Position numbers and translations under genes: made by a program. Below are positions 32,350 to 43,966 of a stretch of 64,000 bases of DNA, one piece after another (within the stretch, counting starts at the first letter, position 1; each line of letters opens with the position of its first letter). Under the pieces are notes generated by a model, which worked only from the letters and a program-made list of their open reading frames with translations, was not told the origin of the DNA and did no database searches. The stretch lies in the sequence record OR896820.1. One strand, written 5' to 3'. Source of the stretch: Escherchia phage Stokescottia.

Positions 32350-32520
32350 ATGAAATCAGTTGTAATTATTGGTGTTAACACTCGCGGTATTCGTACTACG
32401 AAAACTGTTAAAACTTCTAACGTTGCTGAAATCACTACGAACCCTAAAAAGTTTGATTTCGCCAAAGTCTCAGCAGTTATGACAGAACAATCTTTTAACC
32501 AAGCGTTAGGAATGAAATAA
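32350..32520 (+). CDS. hypothetical small protein
   Basis: 56-aa ORF (below the 60-aa track cut-off) placed right after promoter and SD. Confidence 0.35.
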   Translation: MKSVVIIGVNTRGIRTTKTVKTSNVAEITTNPKKFDFAKVSAVMTEQSFNQALGMK

Positions 32521-32963
32521 TGGAAGAGAATATTTTAGATGTTTTGCGTAGAGCTTTGCAGGATTCTAAGTTTAATGGTTCTGATAAAGAAGTCGCCAAA
32601 AGCTATCAGACCATAATTGGGGATCTTCAGCGTATTGATAAAGATTTCATCACTTCTGAACAATTTGTGTCTTATCTCAAAGCTCAACTAAAAAGCATTA
32701 ACCAGATGAAAGCTAAACTTCATGGTCAAGATCTCGATAGTTATAGCCTACAGTCTGCTCAGTATGAATACATTCTAAATAAGTGGTTGCAGGAGTATCT
32801 GCCCCCTCAGTTATCTGATACTGAGATTCGTAAATACTTTGCAGAATTAGTTAAGCTAAACCCTGGAATTACAAAGGGTATGCTGATGAAAGCGATTAAG
32901 GAAGAATTTCCTGGGCGTTATGATGGTGGTACTGCTGCTCAGATTGCTGGCGAATTTAATTAA
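32520..32963 (+). CDS. GatB/YqeY-domain-like protein
   Basis: 147 aa; C-terminal ...KGMLMKAIKEEFPGRYDGGTAAQIAGEF resembles YqeY. Confidence 0.4.
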   Translation: MEENILDVLRRALQDSKFNGSDKEVAKSYQTIIGDLQRIDKDFITSEQFVSYLKAQLKSINQMKAKLHGQDLDSYSLQSAQYEYILNKWLQEYLPPQLSDTEIRKYFAELVKLNPGITKGMLMKAIKEEFPGRYDGGTAAQIAGEFN

Positions 32964-32971
32964 AAATTCAT

Positions 32972-33000
32972 TTGCTAAATGCTTATAAATTCTGTATAAT
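32972..33000 (+). promoter_or_regulatory. early-type promoter reading into a non-coding region
   Basis: TTGCTA, 17-nt spacer, TGTATAAT; no ORF follows for ~900 nt. Confidence 0.6.
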
Positions 33001-33224
33001 ATATTCATAAATTAGGGAACAGCGAGCCGATTACGCTGAGTGCAGAATCCCAACCGGAGCGCATTGAATAGAGTCGGTGGGTTAGTTGTAAAACTAGTAC
33101 ACAGGGGGCGGCAATTCCGGTTAGTGGCTAGAACGTGTAAAATGAGGCGTCTGAAACCTCTCCCCTAAACTCTTCTCTAATTTATAAATAGTGGGGTGTG
33201 GAAATCACTTATGTAGTAACACTG

Positions 33225-33295
33225 CCGTCCTAGTATAATTGGTATTATCAAGCCGTAACTGGTGGAAGATGTAGGTTCGAATCCTACGGTCGGTA
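33225..33295 (+). ncRNA. degenerate tRNA-like element
   Basis: Canonical T-arm GTAGG TTCGAAT CCTAC but no canonical acceptor or anticodon stems. Confidence 0.25.
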
Positions 33296-33797
33296 AGAAC
33301 TGGATAACTGGTGCTTTTAACGTAAAAGCTTCCGAGGTTAGTTGCGCACTGCCTAAACCACGCGGTAGTTGGTTCCAGACTAACCAACCAGTCTGCTGAA
33401 TAGTTTTATTACGATTTAACTATGTCCAGGCTAAAGAAGAACTTTAGAAGGTATTCTAGGATAGTGAAGTTCTTTCTCCATATCGGAGTAGTTTTTCAAG
33501 CTATCCACAAAGTGGGAAATGCTGACATGAGAGATGTCACTAATGGTGCACAATAGCACAGGTAATTCGCGATAATTCCTGTTGAGTAGCAGCAAAAGGC
33601 GGGAAGTCATGACCCCAAGCCTAACCGAGTCCTCAATATACCGCAGGACATAACCACTAAGTCACCCTGACTTAAACTGGAAAATAATAGACGTTACCGT
33701 ATTTTGTCTTGAAATACTTAATGAGTGGGACTTATGACTCTCCCGGTATCGTCTGTATTTTTAAGAGTTTTTACGAGAGTTCTTAAAAATACTTAAA

Positions 33798-33872
33798 CGG
33801 GGTGTAGTCTAAGGGAGAGGCAGGAGTCTTCTAAATTCCTTTATGCAGGTTCGAATCCTGTCACCTCGGCCA
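33798..33872 (+). tRNA. tRNA-Arg(TCT)
   Basis: Hand-folded cloverleaf: acceptor CGGGGTG/CACCTCG, anticodon loop CTTCTAA, T-loop TTCGAAT, encoded CCA. Confidence 0.65.
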
Positions 33873-37505: not shown

Positions 37506-37583
37506 GGTTCTCAAGCTCATATGGTATGAGCACCCGGCTCATAACCGGAAGGTACGTAGGTTCGAATCCTCGGGGAGCCACCA
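37506..37583 (+). tRNA. tRNA with CAT anticodon (Met or Ile2)
   Basis: Acceptor GGTTCTC/GGGAGCC, D-stem GCTC/GAGC, anticodon loop CTCATAA; T-stem imperfect. Confidence 0.55.
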
Positions 37584-40423: not shown

Positions 40424-40525
40424 AATTCTGTGTAGAGTTAAGTAAACCGGTAGCCAATCAGCTATCATTGCTGACATCGAATTCAGCCACAGATACCATT
40501 TTCATTAATAACTGAGGAAACAAGC

Positions 40526-41171: not shown

Positions 41172-41563
41172 TAAAATTTCAGTGCAGAACACGGAGCTAG
41201 CAATTCGGAAGTGCTGACTCATGATAAGCTGCCTATGTACTTGCGAAGCGGTCGTGTCCAAGACTCGGACTCTTGCACTGAAAACAATCAAACATTCTAG
41301 CGTGGTTGATGGGGAAACCAGCTTGGCGAGGGCAGAAGCTCGTTCGATTCGAGTGAAAGAATGGTTCTCGTAAGTCCGCACAAGTGATAACAGGTTCGAG
41401 TCCTGTCTAGAATGACACTATAAAGTTTACTTATTATGTAGGTTCCGGTAGATCGGCGGGTCTATTCTGGCATTTAAGAGAGGTCTCGCAAACTTCTTTG
41501 TCAGCCGTGGGGTTGGTAGCCTCCAGGCGGCCTACACAATAAGTAAATTTATTAAAAATTCAT

Positions 41564-42265: not shown

Positions 42266-42503
42266 ATTTATATAAATTGATGAGGAGAAATCCTCATCAT
42301 AGTTCACTAAGGTATTAGCTCGACCTAGGACTGGCTGCCAAAAAGCACGATCCCCATGATTCGGGAGAAGTTCTAGATTGGTCCACTAGATTCAGCGGCA
42401 ACTGAATAGTGTATTGGGTTTGCGAGATGACGCAGTTCCTTCCGCTCGAAGCGAAGGTGCTGTAGTTACGCCGAGCTAATAGCCTTAGTAAACTAAAGAA
42501 TTT

Positions 42504-43337: not shown

Positions 43338-43889
43338 ATTAACTATAAGGAAATCTTATGAGCAAAACAGTTACTGTAACAATGAAGGATGGTAAAAAAT
43401 TTAAAGCATGTCTTCATGAAACAGATAAGGGATGGATGGCTTATTTGCCACACCTAGATTCCACCAGGTACGGAATGACCCAACGTGAAGCTATTGTTGA
43501 TGCTTTAAATGAGGCTTCTGCTGGTTTATAAAAATTCTTGAAGTATGCCGGAATTGGTAGACGGGGCTGCCTAAAAGGTTTATAGAGAACATCCACTCTC
43601 TACAACATACCTCATAAAGCGGCTGAGATAAATGGTCTATCTCGTGAAGGTTCAAGTCCTTCTGCTTCTTGATACATCTATGGCTCAAAGTGTAACGGTG
43701 CTATTTGATGCTCTTAGTAAGACTTCCCCGACATGCGTTCGGGAGTAAGCTGCTAAGGCTAGAGTAGAAGAGTTTCTGAGAGCCGCCACAATTGAAAATT
43801 CGTACTCGTCTTGAGCTGCGTGCAATAGGAGATAACTTGATTAGTATTCTAGAACATGCTAATTGAGGAAGGTTTCGCTAACCCTGCGA

Positions 43890-43966
43890 GTTTTCAATTG
43901 TGGCTATATCATAATTGGTTAATGATCCTGATTGTGAATCAGGCCTATGTGGATTCGAGTTCCACT
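43890..43966 (+). tRNA. tRNA-His(GTG)
   Basis: Acceptor GTGGCTA/TAGCCAC, D-stem TCAT/ATGA, anticodon arm CCTGA TTGTGAA TCAGG, CCA. Confidence 0.7.

What the first reader, a model, noticed from the sequence alone, without database searches (positions are those of the whole stretch)
32972..33797. Promoter-driven ~800 nt non-coding transcript upstream of tRNA-Arg with a degenerate tRNA-like element
A full early-type promoter (32972-33000) is followed by ~800 nt with no ORF of 60 aa or more in the transcribed direction before tRNA-Arg at 33798. At 33225-33295 a perfect T-arm (GTAGG TTCGAAT CCTAC) is embedded in a sequence I could not fold into a canonical cloverleaf. The region may encode structured RNA, processed tRNA-like fragments or a non-canonical tRNA.
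Basis: partly seen in the sequence, partly recalled or inferred. Interest (0 to 1): 0.65.

Follow-up and report, generated by a model that had tools for sequence, protein, structure and literature searches.

The report
Large structured phage RNA, tRNA-like branch
The interval is the T5-phage "RNAX" gene, annotated in GenBank as a stable RNA of unknown function; comparison with relatives shows it is a large, intricately folded non-coding RNA carrying a built-in tRNA look-alike, which resembles the unexplained giant phage RNAs GOLLD and ROOL but sits in a lab-friendly E. coli phage.

Summary
A zero-mismatch T5 early promoter (32972-33012) drives about 790 nt (33007-33797) with no conserved ORF. 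The interval ends at tRNA-Arg (33798-33872) and contains a tRNA-like element (33224-33295; Rfam tRNA 35.5 bits, ARAGORN negative).

It is the homolog of "rnaX / RNAX, stable RNA with unknown functions" annotated in T5 (AY543070) and BF23 (AJ604530). So the transcript itself is already on record.

What I could not find described anywhere is its structure. RNAX is a multi-domain folded RNA conserved across four Demerecviridae lineages sampled. Three modules tested formally give 109 base pairs at 93-95% pairing, against 33-55% in shifted controls, and 50 pairs carry compensatory changes. A covariance model built only from other genera finds the window's 3' module at 91.7 bits.

The tRNA-like element is not a free tRNA. 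It caps a 12-bp covarying helix formed by its own flanks. Its anticodon arm is a 3-bp stem with a 6-nt loop, and other lineages carry unrelated hairpins in the same slot.

No Rfam family matches. The architecture parallels GOLLD: phage-borne, at the head of a tRNA island, dispensable 5' domain, embedded tRNA, conserved 3' domain. Function is unknown; a trans-acting GOLLD/ROOL-like scaffold is my best guess.

The parts
32972..33012 (+). T5 early promoter, the homolog of 'P16-17'. The -35 hexamer TTGCTA is at 32972-32977 and the -10 hexamer TATAAT at 32995-33000, followed by the conserved CATAAAT start region. The start site is probably A33007.
   Evidence: 10 of 12 consensus positions. (0 mismatches to the recurrent early-promoter pattern; 22 sites in the window against 0.32 expected). 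Annotated as promoter P16-17 in T5 and BF23. The start at 33007 is inferred by analogy with T5 promoter PN25 from my own knowledge; GenBank places the RNA start at about 33014.
33007..33797 (+). RNAX, the whole non-coding structured transcript from the start site to the base before tRNA-Arg.
   Evidence: 97.4% identical to the BF23 rnaX feature and 92.8% to T5 rnaX over the shared part. No conserved ORF. No Pfam hit for the three small ORFs.
33007..33185 (+). Domain 1, the 5' domain. It is closed by helix 33007-33019 / 33173-33185 and contains hairpin 33020-33024 / 33034-33038 and hairpin GAGG 33144-33147 / CCUC 33157-33160. It is modular and dispensable.
   Evidence: closing helix 95% paired; hairpin variants GAGG/CCUC, GCGG/CCGC, GUGG/CCAC; the interior is missing in T5 and replaced by an annotated ORF in MET_P1-88, an HNH endonuclease gene in JLBYU43.
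33191..33361 (+). Domain 2, the central four-way junction. It is closed by helix P-L (GUGG 33191-33194 / CCAC 33358-33361). The joining strands GGUGUGGAA (33195-33203) and UAAA (33354-33357) are conserved.
   Evidence: P-L variants GUGG/CCAC, AUGG/CCAU, ACGG/CCGU and AUGGG/CCCAU; invariant columns.
33204..33312 (+). Helix P-J (33204-33217 paired with 33299-33312, 12 bp with conserved C.C and G.G mismatches). It carries the tRNA-like element on invariant linkers AACACU (33218-33223) and AAGA (33295-33298).
   Evidence: helix 1: 99.6% of cells paired, and 7 of 12 pairs have changes on both sides.
33224..33295 (+). tRNA-like element.
- Acceptor stem 33224-33230 / 33288-33294, with G.U at 1-72 and U.U at 5-68.
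- D-arm 33233-33248.
- Degenerate 'anticodon' hairpin 33252-33254 / 33261-33263 with a 6-nt loop.
- T-arm 33271-33275 / 33283-33287 with loop UUCGAAU.
- No CCA is encoded.
   Evidence: Rfam tRNA 35.5 bits; anticodon region unaligned. (ARAGORN negative). (covariation in the acceptor, D and T stems). (apparent anticodon varies between relatives). (the slot holds other hairpins in GSW6, Proteus phage 2, L050 and L058).
33313..33352 (+). Two junction hairpins. K is 33313-33319 / 33323-33329. K2 spans about 33335-33352 and is of the GGCAGU/ACUGCC type.
   Evidence: K: helix 8 (100% paired, 3 of 5 pairs compensatory). K2: read by eye (variants GGCAGU/ACUGCC, GACAG/CUGUC, GACAGU/ACUGUC); not formally counted.
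33362..33509 (+). Domain 3, the variable middle region. It holds hairpin 33368-33374 / 33382-33388 with conserved loop CCAGACU. It also holds a helix (about 33437-33478) capped by the hairpin UAGAA-GGUA-UUCUA.
   Evidence: read by eye: GUUGGUU/AACCAAC against GUUGAUU/AAUCAAC; UAGAA/UUCUA against UAGGC/GCCUA against UAGUC/GACUA. The sub-elements are present or absent by lineage. Not formally counted.
33512..33657 (+). Domain 4. It is closed by the invariant helix GUGG 33512-33515 / CCAC 33654-33657. It contains hairpin 33523-33527 / 33535-33539, the long helix 33544-33562 / 33578-33594 and hairpin 33629-33633 / 33645-33649.
   Evidence: 34 pairs, 94.9% paired against 33-55% when slid, and 19 pairs with changes on both sides (0-5 when slid).
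33597..33622 (+). Hairpin presenting the invariant 8-nt loop AGUCAUGA (33605-33612), whose core UCAUGA is self-complementary.
   Evidence: the same loop sits on a covarying stem in every lineage, including Proteus phage. helix 5: 4 of 6 pairs compensatory.
33659..33795 (+). Domain 5, the 3' module.
- Hairpin AGUCA-CCC-UGACU at 33660-33672.
- A three-way junction made of P1 (33689-33699 / 33744-33754), P3 (33699-33704 / 33712-33717) and P4 (33727-33730 / 33739-33742), with the conserved strand CUUAAU.
- A terminal 17-bp hairpin at 33755-33771 / 33776-33792, capped by a UACG tetraloop.
   Evidence: Covariance model R1 was built without any Tequintavirus sequence and scores the window at 91.7 bits, E about 4e-22; 94.5% paired against 33-53% when slid, with 11 compensatory pairs. 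The terminal hairpin is more than 90% identical even in Pectobacterium phage DU_PP_V.
33798..33872 (+). tRNA-Arg(UCU), the first gene of the tRNA island. It begins immediately 3' of RNAX, 5 nt after the terminal hairpin (33755-33792). RNase P cleavage at its 5' end would create the annotated RNAX 3' end.
   Evidence: The GenBank RNAX feature ends one base before tRNA-Arg. RNase P processing is inferred, not shown.

Best explanation
The interval encodes RNAX, a non-coding RNA of about 790 nt that folds into at least five helix-closed domains.

**Shown here**
- It is transcribed territory behind a consensus T5 early promoter, on the same strand as the tRNA island.
- It has no conserved reading frame.
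- Its secondary structure is maintained by compensatory substitutions across Tequintavirus, Epseptimavirus, Sugarlandvirus and Hongcheonvirus phages. A rearranged version is present in Proteus-type relatives.
- The tRNA-like element is a tRNA-derived branch mounted on a helix made from its own flanks. It sits in a peripheral slot that other lineages fill with different hairpins.

**Inferred**
- The RNA is made early in infection.
- Its 3' end is set by RNase P cutting at tRNA-Arg in Tequintavirus. Where ORFs intervene, the conserved terminal UACG hairpin would set or protect it.
- The RNA acts in trans as a stable folded scaffold, in the manner of GOLLD and ROOL RNAs. It would work on the tRNA and translation side of host takeover by displaying an L-shaped tRNA mimic to tRNA-binding enzymes or to host tRNA-targeting nucleases.
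- It may self-associate or form a long-range contact through the invariant self-complementary loop AGUCAUGA.
For: **Identity**
- The interval is 97.4% identical to the BF23 rnaX feature and 92.8% to T5 rnaX ('stable RNA with unknown functions'), with the same promoter P16-17 and the same downstream tRNA-Arg.

**Promoter**
-.

**Non-coding**
- The three + strand ORFs (42, 45 and 44 aa) are broken by stops or frameshifts in most other lineages, and in T5 itself for two of them.
- None has a Pfam hit.

**Structure**

| Module | Pairs | Paired | Paired when slid | Pairs changed on both sides (slid) |
|---|---|---|---|---|
| Junction and tRNA-like element | 38 | 93.2% | 33-41% | 20 (0-5) |
| Domain 4 | 34 | 94.9% | 33-55% | 19 (0-5) |
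| 3' module | 37 | 94.5% | 33-53% | 11 (1-5) |

- In all three modules, 0 of 500 shuffles reached the observed percentage paired or covariation score.
- The window was recovered at 91.7 bits by a model trained only on other genera.
- The central domain is closed by a helix with compensatory variants.
- Many of the commonest pairs are G.U or U.G. These would be A.C on the other strand, so the structure is specific to the + strand.

**tRNA-like branch**
-.

**Distribution**
- A junction motif finds only genome-sized (104-123 kb) T5-like contigs in IMG/VR.
- It finds T5-like contigs plus chance hits in metagenomes.
- It finds only chance or coding hits in 185,579 bacterial and archaeal genomes.

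**Analogy**
- GOLLD and ROOL are phage or prophage RNAs near tRNA islands.
- GOLLD has a conserved 3' region, a less conserved 5' region, and sometimes tRNAs in its linker (PMC12286853; PMC5737381).
Against: - I found no expression or end-mapping data. 'Stable RNA' rests on a GenBank note whose experimental basis I could not read.
- The whole-transcript folding energy is unremarkable on both strands (z = -1.31 and -1.23).
- No Rfam family matches, including GOLLD and ROOL, at E up to 10. The functional analogy therefore rests on context and architecture only.
- Large parts are dispensable. T5 lacks the 5' domain interior, several lineages lack the tRNA-like element, and Proteus-type phages lack the terminal hairpin and have a different domain order. 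Any function tied to those parts cannot be universal.
- Domains 1 and 3 were judged mostly by eye or from a projected alignment, not with the formal controls.
Confidence: 0.6

Rival explanations
1. RNAX is a cis-acting leader. The structured RNA would exist only to control transcription, processing or stability of tRNA-Arg and the downstream SPFH gene, and would have no function of its own after processing.
For: It is immediately upstream of tRNA-Arg in Tequintavirus, with 5 nt between the terminal hairpin and the tRNA. It is always the first element of the tRNA island. Weinberg et al. note that GOLLD and ROOL proximity to tRNAs could simply reflect co-transcription (PMC5737381).
Against: In GSW6, 26175I and bobsandoy a 510-nt ORF lies between RNAX and tRNA-Arg. 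MET_P1-88 has two ORFs there and Sugarlandvirus phages have two. The RNAX structure is nonetheless conserved. A 650-1300 nt five-domain fold is far larger than any known tRNA leader. GenBank calls it a stable RNA.
Confidence: 0.12
2. The tRNA-like element is the functional product. RNase P and 3' nucleases would excise a small non-canonical tRNA or tRNA-like RNA, for example a decoy or a suppressor, and the rest would be precursor.
For: It passes Rfam's tRNA gathering score. The elbow-forming D-loop GG and the T-loop UUCGA are conserved. Other records call it tRNA-OTHER, tRNA-Sec(tca), tRNA-Ser or tRNA-Leu. One soil-metagenome relative (L086) appears, by eye, to have a regular 5-bp anticodon stem and a 7-nt loop with GUG, although the contig is cut inside the T-arm.
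Against: - The anticodon arm is a 3-bp stem with a 6-nt loop in the window, and the apparent anticodon is not conserved (ACT, TCA, CGA, TAG or none).
- There is no CCA, position 1-72 is G.U or G.A, and position 5-68 is mostly U.U.
- The flanks form a covarying 12-bp helix plus 2 further pairs continuing the acceptor stem. That argues for a permanently attached branch.
- The element is replaced by unrelated hairpins in at least four lineages, while the surrounding junction stays invariant.
Confidence: 0.1
3. RNAX is a highly diverged member of the GOLLD or ROOL family, related by homology rather than by analogy.
For: It shares the phage origin, the position at a tRNA island, the size, the variable 5' and conserved 3' organisation and the embedded tRNA.
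Against: Rfam 15 covariance models give no GOLLD or ROOL hit. This holds at E up to 10 on the 1-kb interval, on the 3' half alone and on the Proteus homolog, and at E up to 0.5 in ten relatives.
Confidence: 0.06
4. The interval is decaying, neutral sequence: a graveyard of old tRNA genes and recombination scars left by homing endonucleases. Sequence conservation would reflect only recent common ancestry.
For: There is a mosaic of blocks with lineage-specific insertions and deletions. HNH genes lie at both edges in some relatives. One tRNA-derived element is present.
Against: Fifty of 109 tested pairs show compensatory double changes while pairing stays at 93-95%. Several single-stranded motifs are invariant across subfamilies that share only about 70% identity or less elsewhere. 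Only one tRNA-like hit exists in the interval.
Confidence: 0.03
5. The interval encodes one or more small proteins, as many GenBank records annotate.
For: + strand ORFs of 42-45 aa exist. Automated annotations place 'hypothetical protein' CDSs here.
Against: Each window ORF is interrupted or frameshifted in most other lineages, and two of the three are lost or broken in T5 itself. Stop codons are evenly spread over the three frames at 20, 22 and 21. There are no Pfam hits. Annotated CDSs differ from record to record.
Confidence: 0.02

Closest known systems
rnaX / RNAX of phage T5 (GenBank AY543070, 40848-41566) and BF23 (AJ604530), annotated 'stable RNA with unknown functions'
   Same: It is the same locus. 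It has the same promoter (P16-17), the same downstream tRNA-Arg and the same strand, and is 92.8-97.4% identical.
   Different: The GenBank feature is only an interval with a note. It describes no structure, no domains and no tRNA-like element, and I found no paper on it. The window's copy is the BF23-like long form, with a 5' domain that T5 lacks.
[quoted passage not shown] 2009; cryo-EM in Kretsch et al. 2025, PMC12286853)
   Same: Both are phage-encoded, lie at tRNA islands and are about 800 nt or more. [quoted passage not shown]
   Different: The Rfam GOLLD model detects nothing. The hosts are Enterobacterales phages of one family. The embedded element here is a degenerate tRNA held in a helix. 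Oligomerisation is untested.
ROOL RNA (Rumen-Originating, Ornate, Large; Weinberg et al. 2017, PMC5737381)
   Same: It is a large multi-junction phage or prophage RNA near tRNAs, with few absolutely conserved nucleotides and unknown function.
   Different: The Rfam model gives no match. RNAX is more modular, with whole domains gained or lost, and contains a tRNA-like branch.
Small stable RNAs of phage tRNA clusters: T4 species 1 and 2 RNAs (my own knowledge) and T5 RNA1, RNA2 and RNA3, the 'tRNA-like stable RNAs'
   Same: They are co-transcribed with phage tRNAs, contain tRNA-like features presumably used by RNase P, and have unknown function.
   Different: Those are 70-170 nt single-domain RNAs, whereas RNAX is 650-1300 nt with five domains. 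Homologs of the T5 small RNAs lie elsewhere in the window.
tRNA-like modules inside larger non-coding RNAs: bacterial Y RNA YrlA, and MALAT1 mascRNA (my own knowledge)
   Same: Each has an L-shaped tRNA mimic with conserved D-loop and T-loop attached to another RNA body.
   Different: No Rfam hit to Y RNA families was reported. In RNAX the connection is through the acceptor end, and the host RNA is far larger.

Membership tests
T5/BF23 RNAX (GenBank misc_RNA rnaX) | Occupies the interval between early promoter P16-17 and tRNA-Arg(UCU), on the same strand, with high sequence identity | tested here: met
   97.4% identity to BF23 over 797 nt and 92.8% to T5 over the shared 79%. The same flanking promoter, tRNA-Arg and SPFH gene are present.
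T5/BF23 RNAX (GenBank misc_RNA rnaX) | Accumulates as a stable RNA in infected cells | not testable with these tools
   Only the GenBank note exists. No RNA-seq or Northern data were found.
tRNA (Rfam RF00005) | Scores above the family gathering threshold | tested here: met
   35.5 bits against a threshold of 29 at 33224-33295. Homologs score 29.3-38.3 bits.
tRNA (Rfam RF00005) | 5-bp anticodon stem with a 7-nt loop and a conserved anticodon | tested here: not met
   The 18-nt anticodon region is unaligned by the model. Only a 3-bp stem with a 6-nt loop is present. ARAGORN is negative in the window and assigns ACT, TCA, CGA, TAG or '???' in relatives.
tRNA (Rfam RF00005) | Free, processable ends with an unpaired leader and trailer and a 3' CCA, encoded or added | tested here: not met
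   No CCA follows the discriminator. The flanks form 2 further pairs plus a 12-bp covarying helix. Actual processing is not testable here.
GOLLD RNA | Match to the family covariance model (conserved 3' domain) | tested here: not met
   No hit at E up to 10 or at E up to 0.5 in ten relatives.
GOLLD RNA | Phage or prophage location next to tRNA genes; about 800 nt; variable 5' and conserved 3' regions; tRNA sometimes in the linker | tested here: met
   for RNAX. The GOLLD properties are as stated in PMC12286853.
GOLLD RNA | Homo-oligomeric nanocage assembly | not testable with these tools
   The only lead is an invariant self-complementary loop.
ROOL RNA | Match to the family covariance model | tested here: not met
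   No hit.
tmRNA | tRNA-like domain formed by the 5' and 3' ends, plus a tag-peptide ORF and pseudoknots | tested here: not met
   ARAGORN finds no tmRNA. No hit to tmRNA is listed in the Rfam results. The tRNA-like element is contiguous and internal.
Group I/II intron, RNase P RNA, 6S RNA, T-box, Y RNA | Match to the respective Rfam models | tested here: not met
   Nothing is listed at E up to 10 other than two tRNA hits and weak hits to unrelated families, all below their gathering scores.

The most novel reading that the evidence does not exclude
RNAX may be a third, independent class of GOLLD/ROOL-type giant phage RNA, found in the classical, genetically tractable coliphage T5.

- It would assemble into a higher-order RNA particle through its invariant self-complementary loop (AGUCAUGA on a covarying stem).
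- It would display an exchangeable tRNA-shaped module. That module would capture tRNA-binding host factors, either tRNA-targeting defence nucleases or tRNA maturation and translation factors.
- The weak YqeY-like protein encoded directly upstream could be a partner.
Probability: 0.15. Interest if true: 0.85.

Novelty: new member of a known kind. Interest (0 to 1): 0.62.

Why it matters
GOLLD and ROOL are among the largest structured bacterial and phage RNAs. Despite 2025 cryo-EM structures, their function remains unknown, partly because they occur in hosts and prophages that are awkward to work with.

RNAX has the same genomic logic: a phage RNA at the head of a tRNA island, about 0.8 kb long, with a variable 5' domain, an embedded tRNA and a conserved 3' domain. 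It sits in T5 and BF23, lytic E. coli and Salmonella phages with good genetics, known promoters and many characterised host defences that target tRNAs.

If the analogy holds, deletion, compensatory mutation, pull-down and cryo-EM experiments on RNAX could make the question of what giant phage RNAs do directly testable.

There is also a practical point for annotation. Hundreds of T5-like genome records place spurious 'hypothetical protein' or 'tRNA-Sec/tRNA-OTHER' features on this RNA, and Rfam has no model for it.

Tried and rejected
- **Whole-transcript folding energy.** The z-scores are -1.31 on the + strand and -1.23 on the - strand. This is uninformative for an RNA of this size, so I did not use it.
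- **Rfam.** Searches at the gathering threshold and at permissive thresholds on the window, on the 3' half, on ten relatives and on the Proteus homolog gave only tRNA hits plus hits to unrelated families, all below their gathering scores.
- **Small ORFs.** Rejected on frame conservation and the lack of Pfam hits.
- **RNAalifold on the plain MAFFT alignment of the 3' module.** It found only the terminal hairpin and an unverifiable pairing of two invariant motifs (AGUCAUGAC with GUCA..UGACU), because MAFFT mis-registers helix P1 between genera. I replaced it with a covariance model built from well-aligned relatives.
- **A helix from the projected alignment (33195-33199 with 33346-33350).** Rejected. 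The 3' partner instead forms the local K2 hairpin, and it is replaced by an insert in EscoHU1, Klebsiella and DU_PP_V types.
- **Bacterial homologs.** All ten hits in the genome collection are GC-rich, coding-like chance matches without the other motifs. About 9 hits are expected by chance for this pattern.
- **Literature.** Searches for RNAX, T5 stable RNAs, T5 transcriptomics, or T5-like phages together with GOLLD found nothing relevant.
- **Repeated motifs.** The terminal-hairpin loop and the AGUCAUGACC motif are single-copy in the window.
Full report
**What the window is.** The window comes from a T5-like phage (Tequintavirus). The 1-kb region around the finding is 99.5% identical to Escherichia phage BUCT632, and matches are found in 443 phage records.

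**Checking the observation.**
- The promoter TTGCTA-17-TATAAT is at 32972-33000.
- The extended early-promoter pattern TTGCT-N18-TATAAT-N5-CATAAAT matches 32972-33012 without mismatch. At up to 3 mismatches it occurs 22 times in the window against 0.32 expected.
- Between the promoter and tRNA-Arg(TCT) at 33798-33872, the longest ORFs on the transcribed strand are 42, 45 and 44 aa.
- The T-arm GTAGG-TTCGAAT-CCTAC lies at 33271-33287.
- Rfam's tRNA model scores 33224-33295 at 35.5 bits (gathering score 29) but cannot align the 18-nt anticodon region. ARAGORN does not call it.

**It is already annotated.** The curated records for T5 (AY543070) and BF23 (AJ604530) annotate exactly this interval as misc_RNA rnaX, "RNAX, stable RNA with unknown functions". 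In both records it lies between promoter "P16-17" and tRNA-Arg.
- The window copy is 97.4% identical to BF23 over its full length, and 92.8% identical to T5 over the shared part.
- The T5 record lists seven further stable RNAs in the tRNA region. All of them have homologs elsewhere in the window.
- Automated annotations of other T5-like genomes label the tRNA-like element tRNA-OTHER, tRNA-Sec, tRNA-Pro or a pseudo-tRNA. Others lay small hypothetical CDSs over the interval.
- I found no paper that discusses RNAX.

**It is not coding.** Each of the three window ORFs is interrupted by stops or frameshifts in most other lineages.
- The 42-aa ORF region is absent from T5.
- The 44-aa ORF is frameshifted in T5.
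- The 45-aa ORF is intact only within Tequintavirus.
- Stop codons are spread evenly across the three frames, at 20, 22 and 21.
- None of the ORFs has a Pfam match.

**It is a large structured RNA.** I collected the homologous interval from several genera:
- Tequintavirus, Epseptimavirus, Sugarlandvirus (Klebsiella), Yersinia phage phiR2-01, Hongcheonvirus (Pectobacterium DU_PP_V) and Novosibvirus (Proteus);
- IMG/VR and metagenome contigs.

The alignment is a mosaic of strongly conserved blocks separated by lineage-specific inserts, and compensatory changes in helices are visible by eye.

Three modules were tested with the formal controls.

| Module (window coordinates) | Sequences | Pairs | Cells paired | Paired when partners slid | Pairs changed on both sides (slid) |
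|---|---|---|---|---|---|
| Junction and tRNA-like element, 33185-33332 | 20 | 38 | 93.2% | 33-41% | 20 (0-5) |
| Domain 4, 33510-33661 | 15 | 34 | 94.9% | 33-55% | 19 (0-5) |
| 3' module, 33659-33795 | 30 | 37 | 94.5% | 33-53% | 11 (1-5) |

- For the junction module, 0 of 500 shuffles reached the observed values for four of the five measures.
- For domain 4, RNAalifold derived the structure independently.
- For the 3' module, I built a covariance model from 15 sequences that excluded all Tequintavirus phages. It recovers the window at 91.7 bits (E about 4e-22) and DU_PP_V at 50.3 bits.

In total, 50 of 109 tested pairs carry compensatory double substitutions. Many of the commonest pairs are G.U, which fits only the + strand, the strand of the promoter and the tRNAs. 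The central domain is closed by a helix whose variants are GUGG/CCAC, AUGG/CCAU, ACGG/CCGU and AUGGG/CCCAU.

Whole-transcript folding energy is not distinctive, as is usual for long RNAs.

**Anatomy.**
- **Domain 1 (33007-33185)** is closed by pairing of the first 13 nt with 33173-33185.
- **Domain 2 (33191-33361)** is a four-way junction. It has nearly invariant joining strands, helix P-J, and two hairpins.
- **Domain 3 (33362-33509)** is variable.
- **Domain 4 (33512-33657)** is closed by an invariant GUGG/CCAC helix. It contains a hairpin whose 8-nt loop AGUCAUGA is invariant in every lineage while its stem covaries.
- **Domain 5 (33659-33795)** holds the hairpin AGUCA-CCC-UGACU, a three-way junction with the conserved strand CUUAAU, and a 17-bp terminal hairpin with a UACG tetraloop. 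The terminal hairpin is more than 90% identical even in the Pectobacterium phage.

**The RNA is modular.**
- T5 retains only the closing hairpin of domain 1.
- MET_P1-88 and JLBYU43 carry an ORF in place of domain 1, annotated as an HNH endonuclease gene in JLBYU43.
- Klebsiella phages carry extra inserts.
- Proteus-type phages have a different domain order and lack the terminal hairpin.

**The tRNA-like element.** Its acceptor, D and T stems covary, and the elbow nucleotides (D-loop GG, T-loop UUCGA) are conserved. Several features argue against a decoding tRNA.
- The anticodon arm is a 3-bp stem with a 6-nt loop.
- Position 1-72 is G.U or G.A, and position 5-68 is mostly U.U.
- No CCA is encoded.
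- ARAGORN's forced anticodons differ among relatives (ACT, TCA, CGA, TAG, none).

Its flanks continue the acceptor stem by two pairs. They then form helix P-J (33204-33217 / 33299-33312), which is 99.6% paired with 7 of 12 pairs compensatory. The linkers AACACU and AAGA are invariant.

In GSW6-type, Proteus phage 2, L050 and L058 genomes the same slot holds unrelated hairpins. One metagenomic variant lacks the D-arm. Klebsiella phages extend the anticodon arm. One soil-metagenome contig appears, by eye, to carry a near-canonical tRNA, although the contig is cut inside the T-arm.

The element is thus a tRNA-derived, exchangeable peripheral branch of RNAX.

**Distribution.** A 29-nt degenerate junction motif was searched in three collections.
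- In IMG/VR it finds only 104-123 kb T5-like contigs.
- In metagenomes it finds T5-like contigs plus chance hits.
- In one genome each of 185,579 bacterial and archaeal species it finds only chance or coding hits.

On this evidence the family is specific to Demerecviridae.

**Comparison with known families.** No Rfam 15 family other than tRNA matches. This holds for the interval at E up to 10, its 3' half, the Proteus homolog, and ten relatives at E up to 0.5. RNAX is therefore not a detectable member of GOLLD, ROOL, tmRNA, RNase P, group I/II introns, T-box, 6S or Y RNA.

In how it is built and where it sits, however, it parallels GOLLD closely. The shared features are:
- phage-encoded and located at a tRNA island;
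- about 0.8 kb long;
- a tRNA in the linker (PMC12286853; PMC5737381).

**Mechanism: shown versus inferred.**
- Shown here:
  - a consensus early promoter;
  - a non-coding, + strand-specific, covariation-supported multi-domain fold;
  - an attached tRNA mimic;
  - family-wide conservation.
- Inferred:
  - early transcription;
  - 3' end formation by RNase P at tRNA-Arg, or protection of the 3' end by the terminal hairpin where ORFs intervene;
  - a trans-acting scaffold role related to tRNA and translation.

The invariant loop AGUCAUGA is either a self-complementary kissing element or the partner of the downstream UGACU.
- RNAalifold proposes the UGACU pairing.
- DU_PP_V extends that complementarity to 7 nt.
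- The Proteus homolog has no UGACU at all.

The question is unresolved.

The upstream gene (32520-32963) is a weak YqeY-like protein (25.4 bits against a cut-off of 27). I treat this as a possible but untested link to tRNA binding.

**Verdict.** The finding is real and correctly read. The transcript is already on record as RNAX, with function unknown. The addition here is evidence that RNAX is an ornate, modular, family-wide structured RNA with an embedded tRNA-derived branch. It is absent from Rfam and from the literature I could search, and it is best seen as a new family of the GOLLD/ROOL kind in a model coliphage.

Noticed in passing
window 40426-40498, 41293-41417, 41436-41538, 42313-42484, 43537-43681, 43682-43788, 43793-43898: These are homologs (86-99% identical) of the seven other 'stable RNAs' annotated in T5: RNA3, RNA2, RNAIV, RNA2H, RNA1, RNAI and RNAIII. 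Some are called tRNA-like, and all have unknown function.
   Followed up: partly
window 37506-37580: An Rfam tRNA hit (40.3 bits) that ARAGORN does not call. It lies directly after tRNA-Ser(GCT), which matches the position of T5 tRNA-Ile2(CAU).
   Followed up: no
L003 (T5) about 1990-2085; corresponds to window 33660-33682: T5 itself carries an insert of about 65 nt in the RNAX 3' domain, flanked by a direct repeat of AGUCACCUUGAC(U/A)UAAACUGGAA. T5 also lacks the interior of the 5' domain.
   Followed up: partly
L049 517-999; L005 717-1199; L004 1992-2501; L006 2168-2677; L011 2031-2540: Extra ORFs sit at both edges of RNAX in relatives. A 483-nt ORF replaces the 5' domain; it is annotated as an HNH endonuclease only in JLBYU43. 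A 510-nt hypothetical-protein ORF lies between the terminal hairpin and tRNA-Arg. The very conserved terminal hairpin may also mark a recombination boundary.
   Followed up: no
window 32520-32963: The gene immediately upstream of RNAX gives a sub-threshold Pfam YqeY match (25.4 bits, cut-off 27). It is annotated in various records as YqeY-like, 'tRNA amidotransferase' or 'recombination exonuclease'. From my own knowledge, the YqeY fold is the tRNA-binding tail of GatB.
   Followed up: partly
L048 (SB13) 1112-2026; L010 (Sugarland) 1579-2618; L045 (DevonBitter) 1635-2669: GenBank records place up to six small 'hypothetical protein' CDSs, and in one case a tRNA-Pro, over the RNAX homolog. None corresponds to a conserved frame.
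   Followed up: partly
L044 3969-4724 (Proteus phage 2); L050, L055, L058: Proteus and Providencia-type relatives keep the RNAX motifs in a different order. The AGUCAUGA hairpin lies upstream of the central junction, there is no terminal UACG hairpin, and a separate mini tRNA-like hairpin (acceptor plus T-arm) lies near L044 4225-4290.
   Followed up: partly
window 33191-33361 and 33512-33657: Domains 2 and 4 are both closed by GUGG...(A/U)AACCAC and begin with AGUGGG(G/A). This may reflect an internal duplication.
   Followed up: no
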